Source: Escherichia phage VerenaGrendelmeier_Bas101
Length of the DNA stretch: 64,000 nucleotides
Sequence record: PQ850631.1
Strand: one strand, 5' to 3'
Part shown: positions 1,720 through 39,742 of the stretch, piece by piece
Numbering within the stretch: the stretch's first letter is position 1
Layout: every line of letters begins with the position of its first letter
Translations under genes and position numbers: made by a program
The notes under the pieces: generated by a model
The model's input: the letters and a program-made list of their open reading frames with translations, nothing else
Told to the model about the DNA's origin: nothing
The model's database searches: none

Positions 1720-1857
1720 ATGCAAAAGATTATTCAGTCACGTTATGTTAAAGTGCGAAATATTAATTGCAACTCTTTGCTTTCTTGGAAATGGGCTGTT
1801 TATGACTCGATGTTGATTGGCGTTTTAGTGGCAGGAGTGCTATTTAATATTCACTGA
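1720..1857 (+). CDS. small hydrophobic protein (45 aa)
   Basis: ATG preceded by GAGGAAG RBS; C-terminal hydrophobic stretch MLIGVLVAGVLF. Below the ORF-track size cut-off. Confidence 0.3.
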   Translation: MQKIIQSRYVKVRNINCNSLLSWKWAVYDSMLIGVLVAGVLFNIH

Positions 1858-1890
1858 ATTCATCGGCAAAGGATTGCCGCGAGTTTTATA

Positions 1891-2160
1891 CGTATAATGA
1901 CGTATCATCCGTATCAAGTAAGTTGTTGTTTTCAAAAGAATCTTACGGATGATACGCGTTGCCGCCGTACCATATAGGAATTCAAATAAATTAATTTAAA
2001 ATTATATATCTAATTTAATTTTATTTTTTTATAAACTCTTATATATGAAAAGTATCCGTATCATCCGTATCATCCGTAGCACACCAGTGATAGCGCGACT
2101 TATACACCGATACGGATAAAAATACGCCTCATTTTATCCGTATCATCCGTATCACACTAA
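1891..2160. repeat. iteron-like region: at least 8 copies of the 9-10-mer TCATCCGTA(TCA), both orientations, flanking an AT-rich tract (1981-2050)
   Basis: Copies at 1905-1916, 1943-1953 (rc), 2052-2078 (three tandem), 2109-2118 (rc), 2135-2154. Shares blocks with 54327-54615. Confidence 0.7.
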
Positions 2161-2211
2161 TAAAGGCGCGGCTATATCGGTTGTTATACATATTCAAACC
2201 ATAATTATTGT

Positions 2212-2240
2212 TTGCCTAAGTTTTTTTCATTAGATATAAT
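2212..2240 (+). promoter_or_regulatory. sigma70-like promoter TTGCCT-17-TATAAT for the structural operon
   Basis: -35 at 2212-2217, 17-bp spacer, -10 at 2235-2240, about 25 nt upstream of the 2264 start. Confidence 0.4.
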
Positions 2241-2263
2241 ACACAATACTTATTTGAGGGTGG

Positions 2264-3685
2264 ATGCGAATGCAAACGGCACGCGAAATTGACAAAAATG
2301 GATTCTTGACGATTATGGGTTGTCCAATTTCGTCATTTGGCATTTTTGATTATTCTGCTGGTCAAGTTGGTCTTGATGGTGATCCGAATCGCATCGTAAA
2401 AGTCTATCGCCCTGAGTCAGCGGTGAAAGACCCCGAAGCGATAGATTCATTCAAAAATATCCCTTTCATCGACAATCACGAAATGCTTTCTGGATTTGAA
2501 GGTGATGAGGATAACACGGCACCCGAAGAGTATGGTGTCGATGGCGTTCTAACTGGCAATGTTTATTATGACAAGCCATGGATGCGCGGCGACCTTAAAG
2601 TGTTCAGCCGTCGTCTTAAGAAGGCCATTGATTCTGGAAAGGTTGACTTGTCTTTGGGCTATGACTGTGAATTCATCATACAGTCTGGAGAGTTTGACGG
2701 GCAGCCGTATGAAGTGGTGCAGACAACTCTTCGCGGCAACCACATTGCTCTCGTGGACGTTGGTCGAGTACCAGGTGCACGGGTGCTGGATGGTCGTTGC
2801 TTTGACCATCTTTGTTTGACGACTGTAACACCATCCAACGAGGATTTAGACATGCCAAAACCGTTAAAAGGTAAAGCGCGTGATAATGCTGTTGAACAGC
2901 TGAAATCACTGATCCCTGCGCTCGAACAATTTCTGAATGAAGAGAGTGCTGAAGCTGCTCATCAGGACGAAGTTGAAGTGAAAGCAGAAGAGAAGGACTC
3001 AACCGAAAATCGTGAAGAAGTAATGGTTGATCCAGAAGTCAAGGCAGAAGCAGAAGAAACCCCAGAAGGTGAAGAGAAGTTTGAAGTTGAAACTGAATCT
3101 CACGCTGACGGCGAACTTCCGCAATTGATCAGCCAAATCGAAGCACTTATTGCAAAACTGAAAGGTGGCGCGGTAGGTGATGAAGAAGAAGTTGAAGCCG
3201 AAGTCAAAGACGAAGAAGAAGTTGAAGTCAAGGCTGAAGATGTATCACCTTGCGACAAAGCTGAAGATGTGGTTAGCGGCCTGCAAAACAGCAACGTAAA
3301 GGGGGCTTCGGTCGAAAAAGATGACAAACCGACAAAAGCGGCGAAAGCGTCGCCAGGTCCAGCAAAAGGGGAACACTCAATGGCATCTGATTCAGCAGTT
3401 GCTGCTTTCTACGCTGATTCTGCTCGTAAGAATAGCCTCTACCAGCGCCTGTCTAAAGTTGTTGGTGCCTTTGATCATGCAACTATGGACTCCAAGTCCG
3501 TAGCGAAATATGGCGCTAAAAAGTTAGGCTTGAAGTGCGTTGATGGTGCTGAGTTTGACGTGGTGGATAATTATCTGCGCGGCGTTGAGCACGGTCAAAA
3601 ACAGCGTGTAGTCGCAAAACAAAAGGCCGCTGCGGATTCTGCAGCAACTGACGAAGCATTTGAAGCTTGGTTGAAAGGGGAATAA
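2264..3685 (+). CDS. capsid maturation protease / scaffolding-like protein (DUF2213-like N-terminal domain, acidic repeat C-terminal half)
   Basis: N-terminal 200 aa resemble phage prohead protease-like domains. C-terminal half is highly acidic with tandem EEEVEAEVKDEEEVEVKAED repeats. An in-frame ATG at 2270 has better RBS spacing. Confidence 0.5.
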   Translation: MRMQTAREIDKNGFLTIMGCPISSFGIFDYSAGQVGLDGDPNRIVKVYRPESAVKDPEAIDSFKNIPFIDNHEMLSGFEGDEDNTAPEEYGVDGVLTGNVYYDKPWMRGDLKVFSRRLKKAIDSGKVDLSLGYDCEFIIQSGEFDGQPYEVVQTTLRGNHIALVDVGRVPGARVLDGRCFDHLCLTTVTPSNEDLDMPKPLKGKARDNAVEQLKSLIPALEQFLNEESAEAAHQDEVEVKAEEKDSTENREEVMVDPEVKAEAEETPEGEEKFEVETESHADGELPQLISQIEALIAKLKGGAVGDEEEVEAEVKDEEEVEVKAEDVSPCDKAEDVVSGLQNSNVKGASVEKDDKPTKAAKASPGPAKGEHSMASDSAVAAFYADSARKNSLYQRLSKVVGAFDHATMDSKSVAKYGAKKLGLKCVDGAEFDVVDNYLRGVEHGQKQRVVAKQKAAADSAATDEAFEAWLKGE

Positions 3686-3687
3686 AC

Positions 3688-4305
3688 ATGATTTTCCAAA
3701 CTAGTGTAGGCCGTCAATATACAACTGGCTTTCCTGGCGACATCGTTCGCGACGGCCCACAGCGTGGGAAGCCAGGCCGAATCGTTAGCGCCAACGACGG
3801 TGCAAACGTAAACGCCATCAGCCGTGTGTTTGGTTTTAAGGCTGACGTGTCATTAATGGGTACTGGCCAAACCAAAACCTTGGGCGCGCAGGACTTTGAA
3901 GTTGAACTGGGCGGCACCAATTACTATGGCATCCTTGGCAACAGCAAGCGTTACGCTCTGTATGGCAACTCTACTGGTCCTTTGGGTGCCAGCATGGTTC
4001 TGCCTCAATATAGCGAAGGCGAGTTCTATGATATGTGCACGGGCCTCGTAGTTGAAGTATTCAACCCAAGCACCAGTCCGCAGACGCTGAACTACGGCGA
4101 CCTGCTCGCTTATGTACCTAAAGGCATTTCCAGCGGTAACAACCCGAACAACTTGCCTATCGGTGCAATTATCGCCTATACTGGCTCACTGCCAACTGGC
4201 ATGGTTGCCATTCCAGGCGGTATCGTGATTGACCCGACTGCTATTGCCCTTTCCGGCCCAAGCGTCCAGTCTTCCACTTATACCATTGTACAATTGACTC
4301 GTTAA
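3688..4305 (+). CDS. head protein of unknown function (possible decoration/cement protein)
   Basis: AAGGGG RBS then ATG at 3688; lies between protease/scaffold and major capsid genes. Confidence 0.4.
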   Translation: MIFQTSVGRQYTTGFPGDIVRDGPQRGKPGRIVSANDGANVNAISRVFGFKADVSLMGTGQTKTLGAQDFEVELGGTNYYGILGNSKRYALYGNSTGPLGASMVLPQYSEGEFYDMCTGLVVEVFNPSTSPQTLNYGDLLAYVPKGISSGNNPNNLPIGAIIAYTGSLPTGMVAIPGGIVIDPTAIALSGPSVQSSTYTIVQLTR

Positions 4306-4319
4306 TAGGCAGGTGAATA

Positions 4320-5459
4320 ATGACTCGCATTAGCCAAACACACTCTCGCCTCCCAGCGAGCAAGGTGCGCCCTTTTGATATGCAATCCGTTACTGACGCG
4401 GCTGTTTCCCAGCTTGCTCGTATCGGTATTGTGTTTGATTCCGCGATTGTGCGTGATCAGATTGAGCACTTAAACCGTGCAGGCGCTTTCCGCGTAGGTG
4501 ACGCCGCGTTTACTGCGCCGCAGACTACTCCGTCAATCCCGACCCCGTTGCAATTCCTGCAGCAGTGGCTGCCTGGCTTCGTCAAAATCATGACCGCTGC
4601 TCGTAAAATCGACGAGCTGGTTGGTATTGATACCGTTGGTCAGTGGGAAGATGCAGAAATCGTTCAGGGCATCGTTGAACCAGCTGGCACCGCAGTTGAA
4701 TATGGTGATTTCACATCTATTCCTCTGGCAAGCTGGAACGTAAACTTTGAACGTCGTTCTATCGTTCGTGGCGAAATGGGCATGGCAGTTGGTATGCTGG
4801 AAGAAGGCCGCGCATCCGCTATGCGTCTGAACTCCGCAGAAACCAAGCGCCAGCAGGCTGCTGTATCTCTGGAAATCATGCGTAACGCAATCGGCTTCTA
4901 TGGTTGGTACAACGGGAACAACCGCACATTCGGCTTCCTGAATGATCCAAACCTGCCAGCAGCGATGACTTCCAACACCACTTCCGGCTGGGCTACTGCG
5001 ACTTTCCAACAGGTAACTGCAGACATCCGTTTGATGGTTCGTCAAATTCGTGTGAACTCTCAGGACCAGATTGATCCAGAGAAAGTTGACATGACTCTGG
5101 CGCTGCCGACTAACTCTATCGATTGGCTGTCCAACACCACTGACTTCGGTATTTCTGTACGTGACTGGATCACCCAGACTTATCCGAAGATGAAGATCAA
5201 ATCTGCACCGGAACTCAACGGCGCACTTGGCAGTGACCCGACTTTCTTGAACGTGGCATACCTGTACGCCGATCACATCGATTCCTCAATCGATGGTTCA
5301 AGCGATGATGGTTCCGTATTCAGTCAGCTGGTTCAAACCAAGTTCATGACTCTGGGCGTTGAAAAGCGTGCTAAGAGCTACGTTGAAGACTACGCAAACG
5401 CAACAGCAGGCGTTCTGCTCAAGCGTCCGTTCGCAGTCGTCCGTATGACTGGTATTTAA
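4320..5459 (+). CDS. major capsid protein
   Basis: 379 aa, position after scaffold, strongly optimised codon usage, followed by a hairpin; resembles the DUF2184-type capsid family. Confidence 0.7.
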
Positions 5460-24793: not shown

Positions 24794-25771
24794 TTAAAAA
24801 TACTCCATATCGGTAATATCACGGAAGCATTTATACAAAGCAGAGCGCGGCACATCGACAATGCCAAAGTTAAAGAATTTATATGTAAGATACTTGTTGC
24901 GATAATTCTCGCGATTCTCCCAAAGCATTTTTCTCTCTGCCATAGGCATTGAACCAGCGGAGACGCGGAAAGGAATCATTTCGCCTTTCTCATCAACATA
25001 TTTTGGATTGACGACTACGAATGAGCCAAGGTATCCTTTTGCGACTAATCCTTCAGCCTCTTTTGAACGCTTAGTGCGACCCAACTCATCAATGAATGCT
25101 TCGTTGTTGTTCTCCATCATCTCAACGAAGTCTATGATCAGTCCTTCTTCATCGGTCCACGGCTTGTCCTTCCACACATCACGTGACTTTGGCGTCGCGC
25201 GGCCATGCTTGTATTTACCCGTCCAAGACTTGCCATACAAGCCTTCATAGCCAAGCTGGTCTGCTTCGATTTGCATTGCCGCGTACTGCTCCATATTTTC
25301 GATGTTGCGATATTCGAGAGCGCGAAGGAATGGGCGTCGACCATGGTTGATGAGGTGCTGATTGACTTCAGCAACTCTAGCGCGATAGTTTGCATAACGC
25401 TTTTCAAAAGGCAAATCAGGGTCGCTGAAATCATCAAACACCCACCATGTAAAGTTAGTGATTGCATCAGTATTCATGCATGCAGTATAGGCCTGTTGCA
25501 TGACGTTCTTATCATTTGGATTGCCGTCGATTAGCTCTCCATCAAGTCCGTGAATTAATTCACCCAAGAAGAGGAACTCTTTTTTGATTTGAATGTTTCG
25601 CAGTGCCATGCCGGACGTGCCCATTGGCAAGTTGTCATACGCCATTGCGCGTATGCCATCGACCTTGAATGACAATCCGCAAGGCAGCGGCACGTCTTCG
25701 CCGCGCTCGATTATTTGCTTACGCTGGCAACCCTTCATTGGTTTTAATGCTTTGATTTCTCCTGCCATCAC
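24794..25771 (-). CDS. ATP-dependent DNA ligase
   Basis: Nucleotidyltransferase motif I KVDGIRA; also GELIDG and EGLVAKG. Confidence 0.65.
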   Translation of the reverse strand: MMAGEIKALKPMKGCQRKQIIERGEDVPLPCGLSFKVDGIRAMAYDNLPMGTSGMALRNIQIKKEFLFLGELIHGLDGELIDGNPNDKNVMQQAYTACMNTDAITNFTWWVFDDFSDPDLPFEKRYANYRARVAEVNQHLINHGRRPFLRALEYRNIENMEQYAAMQIEADQLGYEGLYGKSWTGKYKHGRATPKSRDVWKDKPWTDEEGLIIDFVEMMENNNEAFIDELGRTKRSKEAEGLVAKGYLGSFVVVNPKYVDEKGEMIPFRVSAGSMPMAERKMLWENRENYRNKYLTYKFFNFGIVDVPRSALYKCFRDITDMEYF

Positions 25772-26361
25772 TCAAACTCCTTATTCATCACTTGTTCCAG
25801 CGCATAGGCGTAAGCCTGATCAGTCGATTTGATGAATGTGCCGTTGTACATGACACCTTTTCGGTCTTTAATGTCTTCGTAGGCCGCTTGCGCACAGTCG
25901 GATAAGCGAAGGCCATAATCATGAGCTACGCCGGAAAGGTAATCGGATGCGGCCATGATGGTCACGTCAATATCCATGGTCTGATTCTTAGCGATTGCAT
26001 CACCAAGTCGTCCAAGGGTCTTTGCCAGGCGAAGGATAAATGAATGAGGGTGAGCACCTTTATCAGCGCAACCGCCGCCATTAATGTTTTCGATTTCAGT
26101 ACCGTTTTGCGCTGCCAGGATGGTCAACACAACAAGGCAATCGCCGATGTCGTCCTTAATTGCTGCCTGCAAGTCACAGATGGCTTGCTCTGTATATCCA
26201 ATTTCAGGGTCGAAGAACACAAGGTCATGGAGTTGATCAACGTGGTCGGTTAACTCCCCGAACTCGCTGATAAGCTTCGGGTATTGGTCCTTAAGGTCGC
26301 AACCTTGGATGATGTTACGGTCAGAAGCCCACTGGCGAATGTTTGCATAAATCTGTTTCAT
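25768..26361 (-). CDS. MazG-like nucleotide pyrophosphohydrolase
   Basis: IRQWASDRNI, LISEFGELTDHV and IGDCLVVLTILAAQNG match the MazG-type EExxE helical pattern. Confidence 0.5.
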   Translation of the reverse strand: MKQIYANIRQWASDRNIIQGCDLKDQYPKLISEFGELTDHVDQLHDLVFFDPEIGYTEQAICDLQAAIKDDIGDCLVVLTILAAQNGTEIENINGGGCADKGAHPHSFILRLAKTLGRLGDAIAKNQTMDIDVTIMAASDYLSGVAHDYGLRLSDCAQAAYEDIKDRKGVMYNGTFIKSTDQAYAYALEQVMNKEFE

Positions 26362-34116: not shown

Positions 34117-34139
34117 ATTAGCCTCCTACAAAAAGGCCG

Positions 34140-34159
34140 CCCATTAGGACGGCCACATA
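34140..34159 (-). terminator. rho-independent terminator (minus strand)
   Basis: 8-bp stem with one GU wobble; minus-strand transcript followed by UUUUUG, then AGGAGG RBS of the exonuclease gene. Confidence 0.55.
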
Positions 34160-34170
34160 TTCACGATTTG

Positions 34171-34722
34171 TTATACAGTGTACGGAGTACCGTCTTGATT
34201 CAACCGCACGATGAACTTAAGGTCAACACCAATGATTTCACGCGTATCAAAGATCACATAGTTGTAACGACGCTGACCAGCAATGTTTGGGTTGGTGTGA
34301 GAGTCGGTCACAACTTCCTGTGCAACCTGAATGCCTTCTTCGCTAAAGAACTTACGCCATTCAGCAAGTTCAGCGGCAGTCACGTGCATGCCAAGGTGGC
34401 TGACCTGATTGTCATGCGCATCGATATATTCGATGTTTTCGTTAATCCAGTTGCAGCCCATTGTGTAGTCAAGGATTTCAAGCTCAAGAGGCTTACCAGC
34501 GCCGCCATCAGTACCGTTGCCAGCCTGATAGTTGAAGCGCAAGTCAGCTTCATTGGTACAATCGTCGCGACGACCTTTAAAGTCATCAGCTTCAAATACG
34601 CGACCAGTAGCAACAACATGATCATGGAACCATTCTGTCAGGCCGATTTTAGCCAAGAAATCCTGTGCGCGCTGAGCATCTGGAATTGACAGGGCGATTT
34701 GTTCAATTTTAAAATGTGGCAT
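34171..34722 (-). CDS. VOC (glyoxalase/bleomycin-resistance)-like protein
   Basis: 183 aa; N-terminal HFKIEQIALSIPDAQRAQDFLAKIGL resembles VOC beta-alpha-beta modules. Confidence 0.3.
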   Translation of the reverse strand: MPHFKIEQIALSIPDAQRAQDFLAKIGLTEWFHDHVVATGRVFEADDFKGRRDDCTNEADLRFNYQAGNGTDGGAGKPLELEILDYTMGCNWINENIEYIDAHDNQVSHLGMHVTAAELAEWRKFFSEEGIQVAQEVVTDSHTNPNIAGQRRYNYVIFDTREIIGVDLKFIVRLNQDGTPYTV

Positions 34723-34818
34723 TTTGTTTCCTTAATTAAATATTATTGATTAATTACTGTGTTGTCTTCGTCCTGTTTCTTTTCAGGAGCGGGTGTGACA
34801 ACTTCAAATGTTCGTGAT

Positions 34819-35502
34819 TTATTTACCGAATGGAATATCAGTACCAGACATAAAGCGCCATGCGCCCGTAATTAAGATATGGCGAATGAAGTCAGCAATT
34901 ACTTGCGGCTCAGTCTCCAATCCGTTCATCAATGCCTTTTTCTGGTATTCAGCAGCATACTCAGGAGTCCAGCCGCGAGTCGCGCAAACAGCATCTTCAA
35001 TCTGTTTGGACATGCCAGTACCACGTAGCTTGTTAGGACTAATAGAAAATACCGTGATCCCGTATTTAGGCGTAAGCTCGTGAGCCATCTGCTTGCTAAT
35101 CATAAGCGCAGCGGCCTTGGAAGCATTATAACACAAGCTGGACGTCATAGGAATATGCGCAGCGTTGGAAACGATATTGATCACAAAACCTTTGTTGTCG
35201 ATAAGACTTTTCAGCGCGGCTTGAGTCGTGTTGACGAAAGAGAAGGCGTTGGTGTGCATAACGCGATTGAACTCTTCGTAGTTAACATCTTCAAACCAGT
35301 TGTTGGAGTTGACGCCAGCACAGTTGATCAAGCCTTCTACATCATATGGGCTTAAAATTTCTTTCATCTGTTTCGCGTCGCGGACGTCATATCCGTATGC
35401 TGAATCGATTCCAAGCACGTTATGACCGTAAGCGCCAAGGGTGTCAAAAATAGATTTACCAAGACCGGAATTGGAACCTGTTACAACAATTACTTTTTTC
35501 AT
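34819..35502 (-). CDS. short-chain dehydrogenase/reductase (SDR)
   Basis: Cofactor motif VTGSNSGLGKS and catalytic YNASK. Confidence 0.7.
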   Translation of the reverse strand: MKKVIVVTGSNSGLGKSIFDTLGAYGHNVLGIDSAYGYDVRDAKQMKEILSPYDVEGLINCAGVNSNNWFEDVNYEEFNRVMHTNAFSFVNTTQAALKSLIDNKGFVINIVSNAAHIPMTSSLCYNASKAAALMISKQMAHELTPKYGITVFSISPNKLRGTGMSKQIEDAVCATRGWTPEYAAEYQKKALMNGLETEPQVIADFIRHILITGAWRFMSGTDIPFGK

Positions 35503-35567: not shown

Positions 35568-36440
35568 CTATTTATTGAAATTAATATTGTGGGTGTTGAC
35601 GAGACGTTCACACATGGCGCTGTAAACACCATCATCGTGTATAGAGTCTTCGTGCTTCAGGCCGCTGATTGCAAAGCGTGTAAGCTTGACAATCTTAAGC
35701 TCGAACAGATGCCACATGTGGTAGTCTTCCGGCGTTTTCAACGTTACGCCATTAGGGAAAAGCACCTGCATAACCTGGCCTACCATCACAGCGTTATCGC
35801 CATAGACAGCGTTACGCTCACGGAAAGTCGCGGCCATCGCATCAAGAATATCGGCGGCGGTTGCCGGAGATTGTTTGATTTCCACTGCTTTAGTCTCTTC
35901 TTGCCCCGTTGCGCTTGGATCAACTGCTAATCGTTGCACTACTTCACCTGCCTTGCAAAGATTAAATGTAAAAGCGATTTTATTTTGAGCAACGGAATTA
36001 TAATCCATAGCTTCTTTACGCATCGCCGCGAGTACGTCTTGTCTGTCGTCAAACACATTAATGATTCGATAATCGCCGTGACGCAATGCGTAATATAGCC
36101 ATTCAGACTTCATAATAGTTGATGGACGTTTGTCGCCATAGTCTCTCATCTTGATTGTAAATTCATCAAAAGGGAAAACATTGTCCAGACGTTCAAAAGT
36201 CACTTGTCTGTATTTTTCTGGCCTTGCAGTCCAATATTCAACCGCCTCACCGCGAAGAGATGCCGACTCTACTGCTGATGCAATGTGAGGATAGAACTGA
36301 TCATAACCAATACCGCTGTAATAATCATCATAGTCTGACAACGGACCTGCCACCTTGATGCGGTCTAAGCGCCAACGGTCATCAAACAGCGTTCCGTCAA
36401 GGTCGAATACGTTTAAAATTTCGCTGTTTTTAATGCTCAT
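35568..36440 (-). CDS. HAD-family phosphatase fused to a C-terminal domain of unknown function
   Basis: Motif I FDLDGTLFDD, later NVFDDRQDV; ~140-aa C-terminal extension. Confidence 0.55.
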   Translation of the reverse strand: MSIKNSEILNVFDLDGTLFDDRWRLDRIKVAGPLSDYDDYYSGIGYDQFYPHIASAVESASLRGEAVEYWTARPEKYRQVTFERLDNVFPFDEFTIKMRDYGDKRPSTIMKSEWLYYALRHGDYRIINVFDDRQDVLAAMRKEAMDYNSVAQNKIAFTFNLCKAGEVVQRLAVDPSATGQEETKAVEIKQSPATAADILDAMAATFRERNAVYGDNAVMVGQVMQVLFPNGVTLKTPEDYHMWHLFELKIVKLTRFAISGLKHEDSIHDDGVYSAMCERLVNTHNINFNK

Positions 36441-37240
36441 CCTTTTGATACTCCATCTTTAGCAACTGGATTGTTGGTGATTGGCATCGCACTCCAAAAC
36501 TGGATGCGTAACTCTTCTTGCTGTGCCGTGGTATCCATCCAATCACGATACCAAGGGCAATGGGCTTTGCCATGACGAGGAAACGCGCATTTACCCATAC
36601 CGATGCATTGCGGCTGTAATAATGGATTTGCCCACGGGTGCACCTTGAGGACTTCCGCAACCATTGCTCGGAATACTTCTTGATACTCGCCTTGTGTGCG
36701 CGTGCACAAGCGGTTGGAAGCCATCTGTTGCAGCGTTCGCAAGTTGAACTTTGCCATGATATGCGTTTGCATATTAGAAGGCAACACGGCACGTGCATCT
36801 TGAATCTCTGCGCCAGCCGCGCGAAGCTCTTGATACAAAGCATCGATAGTCGCCATCGCATCATCCCACTTCTCTGCCAGTTCAGCGGCCTTCTCGTCAT
36901 GACGAGTCCATCCCTTTGGATCATCCTCTGGGTAAGTAAACTTAGCAGGGCGAATCGCATCAAATGCAGACGACTCCTGAGCGCGGCTGGTGCGTTCTTG
37001 ATATGCGCCTGTGCGTGTGCGCACCATCTGATGGGTCATATTCTTTGATACATCAGTGATGTCAAAGATATAGTCCACAAAGTCAAAAGGCGACTTGATT
37101 GTATCAAGCATGTAGCGCCAGTGCTCTTGCTTCTCTGATTCTGTCATCTCAGAGACTGGCTTACCAGTCATGCGCGTGTTCTTTGTTTCCAGCAAAAGGT
37201 CAAGTGCATCTTGGGTGTATCGAATTAATTCAACTTTCAT
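36437..37240 (-). CDS. thyX: ThyX-like flavin-dependent thymidylate synthase (variant RTR motif, C-terminal Cys/His extension)
   Basis: RTRTGAYQERTSR aligns with the ThyX RHR-X7-8-S motif; ARAVLPSNMQTHIMAKFNLRTLQQM aligns with the ThyX LP/N.R.L block; extra C-terminus QCIGMGKCAFPRHGKAHC. Confidence 0.55.
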   Translation of the reverse strand: MKVELIRYTQDALDLLLETKNTRMTGKPVSEMTESEKQEHWRYMLDTIKSPFDFVDYIFDITDVSKNMTHQMVRTRTGAYQERTSRAQESSAFDAIRPAKFTYPEDDPKGWTRHDEKAAELAEKWDDAMATIDALYQELRAAGAEIQDARAVLPSNMQTHIMAKFNLRTLQQMASNRLCTRTQGEYQEVFRAMVAEVLKVHPWANPLLQPQCIGMGKCAFPRHGKAHCPWYRDWMDTTAQQEELRIQFWSAMPITNNPVAKDGVSKG

Positions 37241-37253
37241 TTTAATTATCCTA

Positions 37254-37700
37254 TTAACGGTAATTCACTAGTTGCTGATCACCAGAGAAGGTGCAATGAT
37301 AAACGAATTGTGCGTTATAAAGCAACTGAAAACTTTTCTTTGGTTCATTATTAGAACTCATTGATGTAAAGATTTCTGCACCAGAACGGTTTTCACCAAT
37401 CAGGTTAATAAAGCCGCCAGTTGAACGAGGCTGAACGAAAGTGAAACGCTGCATCCACGGAGTCCGGTTGGCACCTTTTCCGGTGAATCCCTGAATCTGA
37501 ATATTCAGACCTTCTTGCTCGTTCACACCGATGTAAGTGGTAATTGTTGCGCCAGTCGTCGCTGCGGTCTTGCCGTCCATCGCTTCGCAATCGTAAACAG
37601 CGATTGAATCGGAAGTACGGACAGCGGCTTCAGTCGCTTCCATATACATGGTTCCGAGAATAGCAGTCGCGGCAAGCGCGATTCCAGTGATGCGTTTCAT
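37254..37700 (-). CDS. secreted protein with signal peptide, unknown function
   Basis: MKRITGIALAATAILGTMYMEATEAA signal-like N-terminus; two Cys. Confidence 0.5.
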   Translation of the reverse strand: MKRITGIALAATAILGTMYMEATEAAVRTSDSIAVYDCEAMDGKTAATTGATITTYIGVNEQEGLNIQIQGFTGKGANRTPWMQRFTFVQPRSTGGFINLIGENRSGAEIFTSMSSNNEPKKSFQLLYNAQFVYHCTFSGDQQLVNYR

Positions 37701-37765: not shown

Positions 37766-38761
37766 TTATTTATTAGCAATATAAGCAAATTTTTGATAGT
37801 TATTTGCTTTGATGAGTTTTTCAACTTCAGCAAGGTCATGAGCGACGTCATCAAGCAAAATGTTTCGCCAAGTAGCGAATCGACCGACACTGAATACGTT
37901 CAAATCCATAGTCAACTGGAGCAGTAAGGCGTGGCGCAAGTCTTTCGGAATGTCGACAATTTTGCCATACTTCTGGTCAACCTTTTCAACTTCTTCCAAA
38001 GAGATGTCATTCCATGAAAGACCAAAAGCGGTAAGAACTTCATCCACTTCTGCACGCAGCTTCATGTCGCGATAACGTGTAATGCCGCCAGCGGCTTCAA
38101 CTGCTGCCGCGCTGACGCTTACCAATGGAATTGTTTCAATGATCAGCGTGTCACCAGTGATTGATGCGCGGTAAGTCCTTACAGAATAGTCAGGGAAGTA
38201 AATTGTTTGATACAACTCACACTTGCGCTTAATCTTAAAACGATAAACGCGAATATTTGCCTTATCAAACGAGAAGTCGAGCTTTTGATCAATACCAGCA
38301 AGCTTCATCATGACTGGCAGCGGCGATGTGTTGATGATTGGCGTCTCGCTATAGCCGCAAAGCGTGTCGACCGGAGTATTAAAGAATATACGGTCACCCA
38401 GTTTATCGACAAGTTGATCATAAAAGTCATCCGGCGCTATGTAGCGCGTAGCAGTTTGAAGCTTCATGATTGAGCGGCTGCCAAACTGGTTGGTGACTTT
38501 CATAGAGTACATATTGGCAAGGTTGATTGGGCAATGGTCGTGATAGTAGTTACCGCGAAAATACACGGCCTTGTCAACTGTCACTGCCTTAAAAGGGATT
38601 CCGGTAATACGGCTTACTTCTTCGCCGCGAAAGCGTAGCAGCGCCTTGTGCTGTGGCGCTCGCTCCCCTGCTTCGTACACAATAGAGTTCGGGAAGTGAC
38701 ACGCGGTAATAAGTCCTGCCAAACCGCCGCCGATAATCATTACAGGTTGTTTCATGTTCAT
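37766..38761 (-). CDS. FAD/NAD(P)-binding flavoprotein, UDP-galactopyranose mutase-like
   Basis: Rossmann motif IIGGGLAGL then acidic residue; C-terminal VGRFATWRNILLDDVAHD resembles the Glf-type C-terminus. Confidence 0.4.
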   Translation of the reverse strand: MNMKQPVMIIGGGLAGLITACHFPNSIVYEAGERAPQHKALLRFRGEEVSRITGIPFKAVTVDKAVYFRGNYYHDHCPINLANMYSMKVTNQFGSRSIMKLQTATRYIAPDDFYDQLVDKLGDRIFFNTPVDTLCGYSETPIINTSPLPVMMKLAGIDQKLDFSFDKANIRVYRFKIKRKCELYQTIYFPDYSVRTYRASITGDTLIIETIPLVSVSAAAVEAAGGITRYRDMKLRAEVDEVLTAFGLSWNDISLEEVEKVDQKYGKIVDIPKDLRHALLLQLTMDLNVFSVGRFATWRNILLDDVAHDLAEVEKLIKANNYQKFAYIANK

Positions 38762-38840: not shown

Positions 38841-38868
38841 AAAAAAAGACCCACAACAAGTGTGGGTC
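38841..38868 (-). terminator. rho-independent terminator (minus strand)
   Basis: GACCCACA...TGTGGGTC stem; minus-strand transcript followed by seven U. Confidence 0.65.
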
Positions 38869-38896: not shown

Positions 38897-39742
38897 TTAT
38901 TCCGCTTGATCACCGTCTTCAGCATCGTCGTTGGATTCAACATCGACAAACTCGATGTGGCCCATCTCTTCCAGCTTGCTCAGGTAGGAGCGAACGGAAG
39001 CGCCAAACAGTTGATCTTTAACTTTCTCGCCCAGCTCATCGATAGACTGTGCCACGCCAACTTCGCCTTCTTTGATCGCAGCCAGAACGCGTCCACGGGT
39101 GGAATGCTCTTGCGGCTGGCTCAGGCCATTACCAGTGTAGATGAAGTGAGTAGCTTTTGCACGACGCTGACCGTTTGCCTTTTTAGCAGCCTTACGTTCT
39201 GCGATGGCTTTGCGACGTTCTTCAGCTTCTTTCTTACGCTGTTCTTTCTGCTGTTCTGCAGCTTCTTTCGCCGCAATCTTAGCAGCTTCACGCTCTGCCT
39301 TGCGTTTCGCTTTAGCTTCTTCTTTGGCCTTCTCTTTTTCGGCCTTCGCTGCAGCACGGGCTTGATCACGCTCTGCTTTCTTAGCAGCAGCTTGTTCAGC
39401 TTTCAGGCGCTTGGCTTCTTCTTTAGCCTTTGCCTTTTCGATTTCTTTCGCTGCTTTAGCGGCTTCACGCTCTGCTTTCTTAGCAGCGGCCTTTTCTGCA
39501 CGCTCTTTAGCTTTCTTGGCTGCTTCTTCAGCACGCTTCTGAGCCTTCTCATCAGCAGCCTGCTTGCGTTTCAGCGCAGCTTCTTCACGCTTGGCTTGTT
39601 TTTCCTGCTCACGCTTCTGGCGTTTTTCTTCGGCTTCTTTCTTTTTAGCCAGGCGTTTTTCTTCAGCCACGCGACGACGTTCTGCTGCAGCTGCTTGTTT
39701 TTCTTCTTTAGATAATACTTTGATTGCTTCGGCCATGTTCAC
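38897..39742 (-). CDS. Lys/Glu/Ala-rich protein (long predicted single alpha-helix) with small C-terminal globular domain
   Basis: About 200 aa of KEEKQAAAAERRRVAEEKRLAKKKEAEEKR-type low complexity, then an ~80-aa C-terminal domain. Confidence 0.5.
   Translation of the reverse strand: MNMAEAIKVLSKEEKQAAAAERRRVAEEKRLAKKKEAEEKRQKREQEKQAKREEAALKRKQAADEKAQKRAEEAAKKAKERAEKAAAKKAEREAAKAAKEIEKAKAKEEAKRLKAEQAAAKKAERDQARAAAKAEKEKAKEEAKAKRKAEREAAKIAAKEAAEQQKEQRKKEAEERRKAIAERKAAKKANGQRRAKATHFIYTGNGLSQPQEHSTRGRVLAAIKEGEVGVAQSIDELGEKVKDQLFGASVRSYLSKLEEMGHIEFVDVESNDDAEDGDQAE

What the first reader, a model, noticed from the sequence alone, without database searches (positions are those of the whole stretch)
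37766..38761. UDP-galactopyranose mutase-like flavoprotein in a phage replication block
An N-terminal dinucleotide-binding motif (IIGGGLAGL) and a C-terminal VGRFATWRNILLDDVAHD block resemble Glf-type mutases, but the protein is shorter (331 aa) and divergent. A sugar-nucleotide mutase in a phage could feed DNA glycosylation or a seroconversion function.
Basis: inference. Interest (0 to 1): 0.5.

Follow-up and report, generated by a model that had tools for sequence, protein, structure and literature searches.

The report
ThyX-linked mini UGM-like phage flavoprotein
A small, phage-only flavoprotein distantly related to UDP-galactopyranose mutase always sits just upstream of the thymidylate synthase ThyX, in a phage group whose relatives were recently shown to carry sugar-decorated thymines made by unknown genes, so it is a prime, testable candidate for that DNA-modification pathway rather than an ordinary sugar mutase.

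The parts
37766..38761 (-). Target gene: 331-aa FAD-type flavoprotein of the phage-only family phrog_4828, a truncated UGM-superfamily member
38711..38737 (-). Codons for residues 9-17, IIGGGLAGL (GxGxxG dinucleotide-binding motif). Invariant E30 lies at the end of the second strand.
   Evidence: weak NAD_binding_8 hits in 25 of 39 members
37835..37888 (-). Codons for residues 292-309, VGRFATWRNILLDDVAHD. This block is homologous to the UGM C-terminal motif (AfUGM G446-R447-F-G-S-W-R-Y453). R294 corresponds to R447; N300 replaces Y453.
38150..38209 (-). Codons for residues about 185-204, QTIYFPDYSVRTYRASITGD. This block aligns with AfUGM 314-333. Y188 corresponds to Y317 and R198 to the essential R327.
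38848..38868 (-). Strong intrinsic-terminator-like hairpin upstream of the target; it ends the preceding transcription unit.
   Evidence: a terminator is annotated at the same relative position in phage Mansfield
38800..38827 (-). Weak sigma-70-like promoter match between the terminator and the target start codon
   Evidence: 9 of 12 matches; a consensus match only
37254..37700 (-). 148-aa ORF with a signal-peptide-like N-terminus, lying between the target and ThyX. The clustering found no counterpart in the other loci, so it looks like a Wifcevirus-specific insert that is probably not part of the pathway.
36437..37240 (-). ThyX (flavin-dependent thymidylate synthase family), divergent; the near-constant downstream partner of the target
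   Evidence: (Thy1, E 1.2e-30)
35568..36440 (-). HAD/PNKP-type phosphatase fused to a C-terminal domain of about 80-100 aa resembling DUF6378. That domain co-occurs with the target and ThyX in all lineages examined.
34819..35502 (-). Short-chain dehydrogenase/reductase (FabG-like). Present in Wifcevirus and many relatives; absent from PB1 and 14-1.
34171..34722 (-). VOC/glyoxalase-superfamily protein (weak match), last gene of the unit. Absent from PB1 and 14-1.
34135..34154 (-). Strong intrinsic-terminator-like hairpin closing the enzyme operon of about 4.6 kb, just before the DnaQ exonuclease and Pol III genes
   Evidence: a terminator is annotated at the same relative position in Mansfield

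Best explanation
The gene encodes an FAD-binding enzyme that descends from the UDP-galactopyranose mutase lineage. It has lost most of the uridine-binding helical domain and the UDP- and galactose-contacting residues. It has kept the flavin-proximal catalytic core: the His loop H38, Y85, Y188, the essential phosphate/sugar-binding R198, R294, and probably E209.

It is a dedicated genomic partner of phage ThyX and heads a terminator-bounded enzyme operon. I propose that it works in the thymidine-hypermodification pathway of the Pbunavirus/Wifcevirus supergroup, which puts sugar-alcohol or pentose-type adducts on about a quarter of thymines. In this model it uses UGM-type reduced-flavin chemistry (flavin N5 attack on an anomeric carbon that bears a phosphate or diphosphate leaving group) to open, contract or activate the sugar-phosphate donor that ends up on the C5 side chain of thymine. 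ThyX supplies the C5 one-carbon unit.

Shown here: the gene, the fold, the conserved core, the loss of UDP-Galp determinants, and the ThyX linkage. Taken from the literature: the DNA modification in the relatives F8 and 14-1. Inferred: that this gene belongs to that pathway, its substrate, and that the Wifcevirus in the window is modified at all.
For: 2. Catalytic core. It is 99-100% conserved across 264 family members: H38=H63, Y85=Y162, Y188=Y317, R198=R327, R294=R447. R327 is essential and binds the beta-phosphate and the sugar, and Y317 binds the alpha-phosphate (PMC3322874). A phosphate-linked sugar positioned next to the flavin is therefore the parsimonious ligand type.
3. Linkage to thymidylate metabolism. 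ThyX lies on the same strand downstream in 78 of 82 loci (median gap 358 nt, 24 loci with a gap of 100 nt or less). Three of the four exceptions are truncated contigs. ThyX also follows the target in 6 of 6 MAG contigs down to 29% identity, in a 40-kb Ralstonia phage that lacks the HAD, SDR and VOC genes, and in a 207-kb Rhizobium jumbo phage.
4. Distribution. The family is phage-only: 6 hits, all MAG contigs, in 185,579 species genomes.
5. Operon. In the window the target heads an enzyme operon bounded by strong terminators, as annotated in Mansfield.
6. DNA modification in relatives. F8 and 14-1 both carry the gene. Their DNA contains thymidine-derived nucleosides of 362 and 390 U that replace about a quarter of T in TG context, read as a tetrose sugar-alcohol and a cyclic pentose derivative. 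The authors say the family lacks known modification genes (PMC12191111).
7. Nanopore evidence. Native Nanopore reads of Pbunavirus are of genus-specifically poor quality, and PCR amplification rescues them.
8. Restriction. [quoted passage not shown]
9. Precedent. A flavoprotein has a documented role in thymidine hypermodification (PaMx11 gp47, PMC8989533).
Against: - The link to DNA modification is guilt by association. No experiment ties this gene to the adduct.
- The modification was measured in Pbunavirus F8 and 14-1, not in a Wifcevirus. Both reports are preprints.
- F8 and 14-1 make different adducts, yet PB1-type and 14-1 orthologs are 96% identical. This protein therefore cannot by itself determine the sugar.
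- TG-motif specificity implies a step at the DNA level. No transferase or sequence-reading enzyme has been identified.
- Gene order in this phage supergroup is rigid overall: HAD 74 of 82, exonuclease 57 of 82, Pol III 54 of 82. Part of the ThyX linkage may be inherited synteny of a replication/nucleotide module rather than functional coupling.
- F8 DNA is cut by EcoRI in vitro, whereas Wifcevirus resists EcoRI in vivo. The Wifcevirus phenotype is therefore not explained by a TG-only modification.
- The palindrome-avoidance test was confounded by GC content.
Confidence: 0.4

Rival explanations
1. It is a classical UDP-galactopyranose mutase (UDP-Galp to UDP-Galf), as annotated in phage Mansfield and PCCM_PaP006 and. 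It would supply Galf for glycosylating DNA or a surface glycan.
Confidence: 0.08
2. It is an accessory flavoprotein for plain dTMP synthesis, with no role in DNA modification. For example, it could be an NAD(P)H-dependent reductase or activator that keeps ThyX's flavin reduced, or an enzyme acting on a uracil or thymine nucleotide to boost dTMP supply for very fast replication.
For: The ThyX adjacency is near-universal and survives in the minimal 40-kb genome. Structurally it is closest to eukaryote-type UGMs, and several Foldseek top hits are AfUGM structures in complex with NAD(P)H. From my own knowledge, eukaryote-type UGMs are reduced directly by NAD(P)H. Y188 (=Y317) is a eukaryote-type residue. 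In the Rhizobium jumbo phage the gene lies in a nucleotide-metabolism region with NUDIX, dUTPase and RNR genes. Wifcevirus is reported to replicate unusually fast.
Against: From established knowledge, ThyX enzymes oxidise NADPH themselves, and many ThyX-encoding phages lack this family. The invariant R198/H38/Y188 pocket argues for a small phosphorylated substrate rather than protein-to-protein electron transfer. This reading leaves the demonstrated Pbunavirus hypermodification without any candidate gene.
Confidence: 0.2
3. It acts directly on DNA within the hypermodification pathway, as a flavin-dependent oxidase or lyase. It would oxidise the thymine C5-methyl or a sugar hydroxyl of the DNA-borne adduct, in a role like PaMx11 gp47 or DprE1, rather than process a soluble sugar donor.
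For: There is a precedent for an FAD oxidoreductase acting on hypermodified T in DNA. Thirteen basic positions are conserved at 90% or more, which is compatible with nucleic-acid binding. TG-motif specificity requires DNA-level enzymes. In Wifcevirus the operon also holds a phosphatase and an SDR, an enzyme set reminiscent of phosphoribosyl transfer followed by dephosphorylation, oxidation and reduction (the analogy is from my own knowledge).
Against: The residues retained are those of UGM's sugar-diphosphate site, not of amine oxidases or MnmC. There is no detectable sequence similarity to PaMx11-type enzymes: the tblastn hits are confined to this family. No DNA-binding domain is evident in the model.
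Confidence: 0.15
4. It is an unrelated oxidoreductase of the amine-oxidase/protoporphyrinogen-oxidase/renalase type that happens to sit in the replication module. For example, it could be a metabolite-repair or redox auxiliary gene.
Against: The two blocks shared in register (GRFxxWR and YFP...YRA[ST]I) and the His loop are features of UGMs. That they are absent from PPOX and MAO is my recollection, not something tested here. The profile-profile match is full length. Conservation only in phages and always with ThyX is hard to reconcile with a generic redox function.
Confidence: 0.07

Closest known systems
Eukaryote-type UDP-galactopyranose mutase (A. fumigatus UGM, PDB 3UTE/3UKA; T. cruzi UGM, 4DSG)
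   Different: It has 331 aa against about 480-510. AfUGM segments 45-59, 111-158, 169-193 and 456-468 have no counterpart, which removes most of helical domain 2 and the mobile flap that carries R182. The replacements are W167 to T/S/L, N207 to D/E, W315 to T, Y419 to V/I/A and Y453 to N. Identity is about 16-17%. There is no PF01593 hit. The family is phage-only and linked to ThyX.
Bacterial Glf-type UGM (E. coli Glf 1I8T; Pfam PF03275)
   Same: It shares the GxGxxG motif and the C-terminal GR(L/F)xx(Y/W)(K/R) motif. R340 corresponds to R294.
Genuine phage-encoded UGM feeding DNA glycosylation (Rhizobium phage RL38J1 gp084; Lee et al. 2026, PMC13326640)
   Same: Both are phage flavoproteins of the UGM superfamily that are plausibly connected with sugar-modified pyrimidines in virion DNA.
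PaMx11 gp47, a flavin-dependent glycinylthymine lyase (MnmC1-like) of thymidine hypermodification (Lee et al. 2021, PMC8989533)
   Same: Both are FAD-dependent enzymes of the two-dinucleotide-binding-domain flavoprotein superfamily encoded by Pseudomonas phages. gp47 shows that such enzymes take part in thymidine hypermodification.
   Different: There is no detectable sequence relationship. gp47 lies next to a 5-hmdU DNA kinase and an amino-acid:DNA transferase, and neither is known in Pbunavirus or Wifcevirus. The chemistry differs: amine oxidation against UGM-type covalent flavin chemistry.
Protoporphyrinogen oxidase (M. xanthus 2IVD, human 4IVM)
   Different: The UGM-type sequence blocks and the His loop are, from my recollection, absent from PPOX. 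That comparison was not run here. A tetrapyrrole function has no support from the gene's context.

Membership tests
UDP-galactopyranose mutase (functional family, all classes) | FAD-binding Rossmann motif GxGxxG with an acidic residue at the end of strand 2 | tested here: met
   IIGGGLAGL at residues 9-17. G11, G13, G16 and E30 are invariant. The Rossmann fold appears in the AF2 model.
UDP-galactopyranose mutase (functional family, all classes) | His-loop histidine next to flavin N5 (AfUGM H63 / EcUGM H56), conserved in all five solved UGMs | tested here: met
   H38 aligns with H63 and is 99% conserved in 264 members.
UDP-galactopyranose mutase (functional family, all classes) | Essential active-site arginine that binds the beta-phosphate and galactose (AfUGM R327 / KpUGM R280) | tested here: met
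   R198 lies in the block YFP..YRASI, aligns with R327, and is 100% conserved.
UDP-galactopyranose mutase (functional family, all classes) | C-terminal GR motif arginine (AfUGM R447 / EcUGM R340) | tested here: met
   R294 is 100% conserved, and both the eukaryotic and the bacterial profile alignments agree on it.
UDP-galactopyranose mutase (functional family, all classes) | Conserved Tyr of the uridine-binding helix (AfUGM Y162 / KpUGM Y155) | tested here: met
   Y85 is 100% conserved and aligns with Y162.
UDP-galactopyranose mutase (functional family, all classes) | Conserved Trp of the uridine pocket (AfUGM W167 / KpUGM W160) | tested here: not met
   The aligned position 90 is T 45%, S 17%, L 12%.
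UDP-galactopyranose mutase (functional family, all classes) | Mobile-flap arginine essential for activity (AfUGM R182 / KpUGM R174) | tested here: inconclusive
   AfUGM 169-193 has no aligned counterpart. A conserved R96 in the loop 91-103 could substitute, but that is only my reading by eye.
UDP-galactopyranose mutase (functional family, all classes) | Diphosphate-binding tyrosines (AfUGM Y419 and Y453 / EcUGM Y311 and Y346) | tested here: not met
   Y419/Y311 aligns with V269 (V 43%, I 13%, A 13%). Y453/Y346 aligns with N300 (N 92%). Both profile alignments agree.
UDP-galactopyranose mutase (functional family, all classes) | Conserved glutamate (AfUGM E373 / EcUGM E298) | tested here: inconclusive
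   hhalign leaves E373 unaligned. Invariant E209, at the end of the hairpin RASITGDTLIIE, is a plausible equivalent by eye.
UDP-galactopyranose mutase (functional family, all classes) | Five-helix domain 2, which forms the uridine-binding site | tested here: not met
   AfUGM 111-132, 135-158 and 169-193 have no counterpart. Only one helix (residues 79-90) remains between the beta-meander and strand 104-108.
UDP-galactopyranose mutase (functional family, all classes) | UDP-Galp to UDP-Galf interconversion with reduced FAD | not testable with these tools
   This needs an enzyme assay.
UDP-galactopyranose mutase (functional family, all classes) | A consumer of the product (a galactofuranosyltransferase) in the same genome or cluster | tested here: not met
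   No glycosyltransferase or sugar-nucleotide gene is annotated in about 62 kb of the curated Mansfield genome. No such cluster appears among the conserved neighbours in 82 loci.
Bacterial Glf (Pfam PF03275 GLF) | A match to the GLF domain model | tested here: not met
   0 of 39 members match at E<=10. As a positive control, E. coli Glf relatives all carry PF03275.
Eukaryote-type UGM (Pfam signature PF01593 + PF13450) | Amino_oxidase (PF01593) and NAD_binding_8 matches, as seen in fungal UGMs | tested here: not met
   Fungal UGMs carry PF01593 and PF13450. The phage family shows only sub-threshold PF13450 hits (best E 0.018) and no PF01593 hit.
PHROG phrog_4828 (phage protein family of unknown function) | A full-length match to the family profile | tested here: met
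   E 3.6e-148, residues 1-331 against profile positions 1-333 of 333.
Known thymidine-hypermodification systems (5-hmdU pathway of Lee et al. 2018 and 2021) | ThyA-family dUMP hydroxymethylase, 5-hmdU DNA kinase (P-loop) and aGPT-Pplase transferase | not tested
   I did not search for these directly. None is annotated in Mansfield, and the END-nuclease preprint states that Pbunavirus lacks genes previously implicated in modification. If the pathway exists here, it is of a different kind.

The most novel reading that the evidence does not exclude
The UGM-like flavoprotein and the divergent ThyX together form a new kind of pyrimidine C5-alkylating system. UGM chemistry makes a covalent flavin-N5/sugar-C1 iminium, and ThyX chemistry transfers a flavin-N5-bound electrophilic carbon to C5 of uracil. 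Combined, they could attach a sugar carbon chain directly to C5.

By my own arithmetic, the measured nucleoside masses fit this as well as they fit an ether of 5-hmdU:
- 362.3 = dU minus H plus 1-deoxypentitol-1-yl (C14H22N2O9), isomeric with 5-hmdU plus a tetritol minus water.
- 390.3 = dU minus H plus a C-linked hexosyl group (C15H22N2O10), isomeric with 5-hmdU plus a pentose minus water.

If this is right, these phages make C-glycoside-type thymine analogues through a flavin-iminium relay. That would be a DNA-modification chemistry with no known precedent, and it would explain why no transferase, kinase or hydroxymethylase is found.
Probability: 0.1. Interest if true: 0.9.

Novelty: new variant of a known kind. 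Interest (0 to 1): 0.7.

Why it matters
Pbunaviruses are among the phages most used for Pseudomonas phage therapy, and Wifceviruses are fast-replicating coliphages. A 2025 preprint showed that Pbunavirus DNA carries previously unsuspected sugar-derived thymidine hypermodifications, which a new class of defence nucleases senses. The genes responsible are unknown. A second preprint shows that the modification disturbs Nanopore sequencing. The BASEL study flagged the restriction resistance of Wifcevirus as unexplained.

This analysis puts forward a concrete, conserved and experimentally tractable candidate set: the UGM-like flavoprotein, ThyX and a DUF6378-like domain, plus a phosphatase, an SDR and a VOC-family protein in Wifcevirus. 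If confirmed, it would define a thymidine-hypermodification route that uses none of the known parts (ThyA-type hydroxymethylase, 5-hmdU kinase, aGPT-Pplase). It would also give UGM-type covalent flavin catalysis a new biological role, and provide genetic handles for engineering therapeutic phages that evade or resist defence systems.

If refuted, the result still corrects a recurring mis-annotation ('UDP-galactopyranose mutase', 'polysaccharide deacetylase', 'polyamide oxidase') of a protein present in more than 360 sequenced phages.

Tried and rejected
- Direct family assignment failed. Pfam, NCBIfam and a PDB sequence search with the single protein found nothing. A 39-sequence profile against PDB sequences matched only the GxGxxG stretch, not significantly.
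- hhalign of the small alignment against single UGM sequences gave little: only the N-terminus for E. coli Glf (Prob 3%), and only the C-terminal block for AfUGM (Prob 18%). A signal appeared only with a 264-sequence family alignment against family profiles.
- The alignment to the bacterial profile is unreliable in its middle section. I used only its C-terminal part.
- Foldseek against the PDB could not separate UGM from MAO, PPOX or renalase. The afdb50 library was unavailable. BFVD returned only uncharacterised members of the same family.
- No natural fusion of the family with ThyX turned up. All representatives listed are about 260-340 aa.
- I first thought phage K8 was PB1-like. It is a 93-kb phage of another group, so I discarded it.
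- Restriction-site avoidance does not explain Wifcevirus RM resistance, because the sites are present.
- I tested whether palindromes with TG/CA escape avoidance. The contrast was positive (p 0.011), but the control showed an equal effect for AA/TT and strong GC confounding. I count it as weak evidence only.
- The domain conserved with the target and ThyX could be identified only as weakly DUF6378-like (E 0.0064), and it has no PDB relative.
- I rejected seroconversion: the phage is virulent, no transferase is present, and the gene is conserved across hosts with unrelated surface glycans.
Full report
**Observation**

IIGGGLAGL is residues 9-17 and VGRFATWRNILLDDVAHD is residues 292-309. In an alignment of 39 diverse homologs, both blocks are made almost entirely of invariant columns.

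The window is a Wifcevirus coliphage, 95% identical in nucleotides to SP13, F13, WFC and the BASEL isolates Bas98-100. The gene lies in the replication block: Dda-like helicase, RepB-type primase, DnaQ exonuclease, Pol III alpha and SNF2 helicase.

It is clearly a real gene. It matches phrog_4828 (function unknown) end to end at E 3.6e-148. It has 1,912 homologs and 1,138 representatives at 50% identity, of which the 150 listed are about 260-340 aa. It occurs in 361 phage records, 292 of them Pseudomonas phages of the PB1/Pbunavirus type.

**What the protein is**

No Pfam or NCBIfam model matches. When all 39 alignment members were scanned at E<=10, only sub-threshold hits to the generic Rossmann model NAD_binding_8 appeared, and none to GLF (PF03275) or Amino_oxidase.

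To test UGM membership residue by residue, I obtained authentic sequences. E. coli K-12 Glf came from the genome record. AfUGM was verified against chain 3UTE.

With a 264-sequence family alignment, hhalign matches a eukaryote-type UGM profile over the full length (Prob 91%, E 1e-6). It matches a bacterial Glf profile only weakly (Prob 32%).

Two blocks align in register:
- phage GRFATWRN with AfUGM G446-R447-F-G-S-W-R-Y453;
- phage Y188-F-P-x7-Y-R198-A-S-I with AfUGM Y317-F-P-x7-Y-R327-A-T-I.

**Membership test**

Table 2 of van Straaten et al. (PMC3322874) lists the active-site residues shared by five solved UGMs. Nine are identical in all five: H63, Y162, W167, R182, R327, E373, Y419, R447 and Y453. 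R182 and R327 are experimentally essential.

Mapping these onto the family gives the following:
- Kept at 99-100%: H38 (=H63), Y85 (=Y162), R198 (=R327) and R294 (=R447), plus the eukaryote-type Y188 (=Y317, an alpha-phosphate ligand).
- Plausibly kept: E209 may correspond to E373, by eye only.
- Lost: W167 becomes T/S/L, Y419 becomes V/I/A, and Y453 becomes N (92%). Among the less conserved positions of the same table, N207 becomes D/E and W315 becomes T.
- Deleted: AfUGM segments 111-158 and 169-193 have no counterpart. These make up most of the uridine-binding helical domain and the flap that carries R182.

So the flavin-proximal catalytic core of UGM is preserved, and the determinants for UDP and galactose are not.

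I therefore do not file the protein as a UDP-galactopyranose mutase, although it is a homolog and probably works in a UGM-like way.

**Context**

I fetched 80 viral contigs and clustered all their ORFs without prior assumptions. The cluster that travels most faithfully with the target is ThyX:
- It is present in 78 of 82 loci, always on the same strand and downstream.
- The median gap is 358 nt, and 24 loci have a gap of 100 nt or less.
- Three of the four exceptions are contigs truncated within about 800 nt of the target. The fourth (L018) is rearranged.

The family is essentially absent from cellular genomes. A pattern-based scan found 6 hits among 185,579 species, all on MAG contigs. All six, down to 29% identity, have ThyX immediately downstream.

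The pair also occurs in two other kinds of genome:
- a 40.6-kb Ralstonia phage that lacks the other enzymes of the module;
- 207-kb Rhizobium jumbo phages, within a nucleotide-metabolism region.

A third element co-occurs in every lineage examined. It is the domain of about 80-100 aa that forms the C-terminus of the window's HAD phosphatase. It stands alone in the Ralstonia phage and weakly resembles DUF6378.

In the window, two strong terminator hairpins (38868-38848 and 34154-34135, minus strand) bracket a unit of about 4.6 kb. The unit holds the target, a 148-aa signal-peptide ORF, ThyX, the HAD/DUF6378-like protein, an SDR and a VOC/glyoxalase-like protein. This agrees with the terminators annotated in Mansfield. 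PB1 and 14-1 lack the SDR and VOC genes.

The ThyX itself is divergent. Compared with T. maritima ThyX it has H53F, RHR changed to RTR, S88T and Y91A, while the dUMP-binding arginines are kept.

**Literature that changes the picture**

[quoted passage not shown] EcoRI, EcoRV and EcoKI sites are present in the window: 15, 5 and 7.
- A 2026 preprint finds genus-specific low-quality native Nanopore reads for Pbunavirus. PCR amplification rescues them, and the authors attribute the effect to unknown modified bases.
- The END-nuclease preprint (PMC12191111) is the most important. It shows by restriction digests and LC-MS that F8 and 14-1 DNA contains thymidine-derived nucleosides of 362 and 390 U. 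These replace about a quarter of T in a TG context. [quoted passage not shown] They note that Pbunavirus lacks any gene previously implicated in modification.
- Both F8 and 14-1 carry the target family next to ThyX.
- No paper in the searchable library assigns genes to this modification.
- Flavoproteins already have a documented role in thymidine hypermodification (PaMx11 gp47, PMC8989533).
- An older report notes that PB1-like DNA is cut by EcoRI, HindIII, Sau3A and AluI, incompletely by the first two (PMC3634792). That fits a partial, motif-restricted modification.

**Interpretation**

The modified base is thymine, the adduct is sugar-derived, and no known modification genes are present. The one supergroup-specific enzyme pair consists of a thymidylate-synthase-family flavoenzyme and a remodelled sugar-nucleotide-mutase-family flavoenzyme.

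I therefore consider it most likely (about 0.4) that the protein handles the sugar-(di)phosphate donor of this pathway by UGM-type reduced-flavin chemistry. A further 0.15 goes to a DNA-level oxidase or lyase role within the same pathway.

The alternatives are a ThyX accessory function with no role in modification (0.2), a classical UGM (0.08) and an unrelated oxidoreductase (0.07).

The caveats are substantial:
- The assignment rests on association alone.
- The modification has not been measured in any Wifcevirus.
- Two of the key sources are preprints.
- PB1-type and 14-1 orthologs are 96% identical although F8 and 14-1 make different adducts.
- Gene order in this phage supergroup is generally rigid.
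- My genome-level test for protection of TG sites was confounded by GC content.

**Most novel reading not excluded**

UGM forms a flavin-N5/sugar-C1 iminium, and ThyX relays a flavin-N5-bound carbon to C5 of uracil. The reported masses fit C-linked products as well as they fit ethers of 5-hmdU (my arithmetic): 5-(1-deoxypentitol-1-yl)-dU is 362.3, and 5-C-hexosyl-dU is 390.3. A flavin-iminium relay that builds C-glycoside-type thymine analogues would be a new chemistry (probability about 0.1).

**Verdict**

I rate it a new variant of a known kind. Interest is 0.7, because it turns a recently opened question, the genetic basis of Pbunavirus and Wifcevirus DNA hypermodification, into a directly testable one.

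Noticed in passing
window, whole 64 kb: GATC is strongly under-represented (108 observed against about 255-280 expected), and GGATCC is absent (0 against 9). Several GC-rich palindromes are also absent or nearly so (TCCGGA, AGCGCT, CGGCCG, GGTACC at 0; CCGCGG, GGCGCC at 1). HindIII sites, CAGCAG and GAAGA are over-represented.
   Followed up: partly
window 37254-37700 (-): A 148-aa ORF sits between the target and ThyX. It has a signal-peptide-like N-terminus (MKRITGIALAATAILG...) and no hit in any family library. The neighbourhood clustering found no counterpart in the other loci, so it looks like a moron-like insertion in Wifcevirus.
   Followed up: no
window 38897-39742 (-): A 281-aa protein extremely rich in Lys, Ala and Glu lies just upstream of the target. 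Some records annotate it as 'TolA protein' (phrog_4765, unknown function). Its C-terminal 85 residues are 54% identical to PB1 and 14-1 ORF66.
   Followed up: no
window 36437-37240 (-): The ThyX is divergent. Against T. maritima ThyX it has H53F, the RHR motif as RTR, S88T and Y91A. It also has a Cys-rich C-terminal extension (QPQCIGMGKCAFPRHGKAHCPWY). The match to solved ThyX structures is only E of about 1e-4, although the Pfam Thy1 match is E 1e-30.
   Followed up: partly
window 35568-36440 (-), C-terminal ~100 aa; L092:8909-9211; L004:11720-11950: The C-terminal domain of the HAD/PNKP-type phosphatase weakly resembles DUF6378 (E 0.0064). This domain, not the phosphatase, is what co-occurs with the target and ThyX in all lineages examined. 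It is a standalone 100-aa ORF in Ralstonia phage PY059YO380.
   Followed up: partly
window 34135-34154 and 38848-38868 (-): Two strong terminator-like hairpins bracket a 4.6-kb operon made up only of metabolic enzymes, set inside the replication module.
   Followed up: yes
window 34171-35502 (-) compared with L003 (PB1) and L093 (14-1): The SDR and VOC/glyoxalase-like genes are present in Wifcevirus and in about 50 of 82 related loci, but absent from PB1 and 14-1. If the operon makes a DNA adduct, Wifcevirus probably makes a different one from Pbunavirus.
   Followed up: partly
L004 (Rhizobium phage RHph_Y65) 5950-6912 and 11243-11965; H146 (phage Cisa): Public annotations of this family and its neighbour are inconsistent and probably wrong. 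The flavoprotein is called 'polysaccharide deacetylase', 'polyamide oxidase', 'galactopyranose' and 'UDP-galactopyranose mutase'. The HAD/DUF6378-like protein is called 'phosphoheptose isomerase'.
   Followed up: partly
L018 (IMGVR_UViG_3300020045_015028) 1831-4634: This is the only locus with adequate flank in which ThyX does not follow the target. The SDR and HAD genes are inverted onto the opposite strand, which suggests a local rearrangement.
   Followed up: no
window 25768-26361 (-): A 197-aa ORF lies next to the DNA ligase. Its Mansfield ortholog is annotated as a MazG-like nucleotide pyrophosphohydrolase, although Pfam gave no hit here. A dNTP pyrophosphatase would fit a scheme that manipulates the dTTP pool.
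   Followed up: no
window, dinucleotide statistics: 26.4% of all T residues are followed by G. That is close to the 'approximately one quarter of thymidines' reported as modified in a TG motif in Pbunavirus F8 and 14-1.
   Followed up: partly
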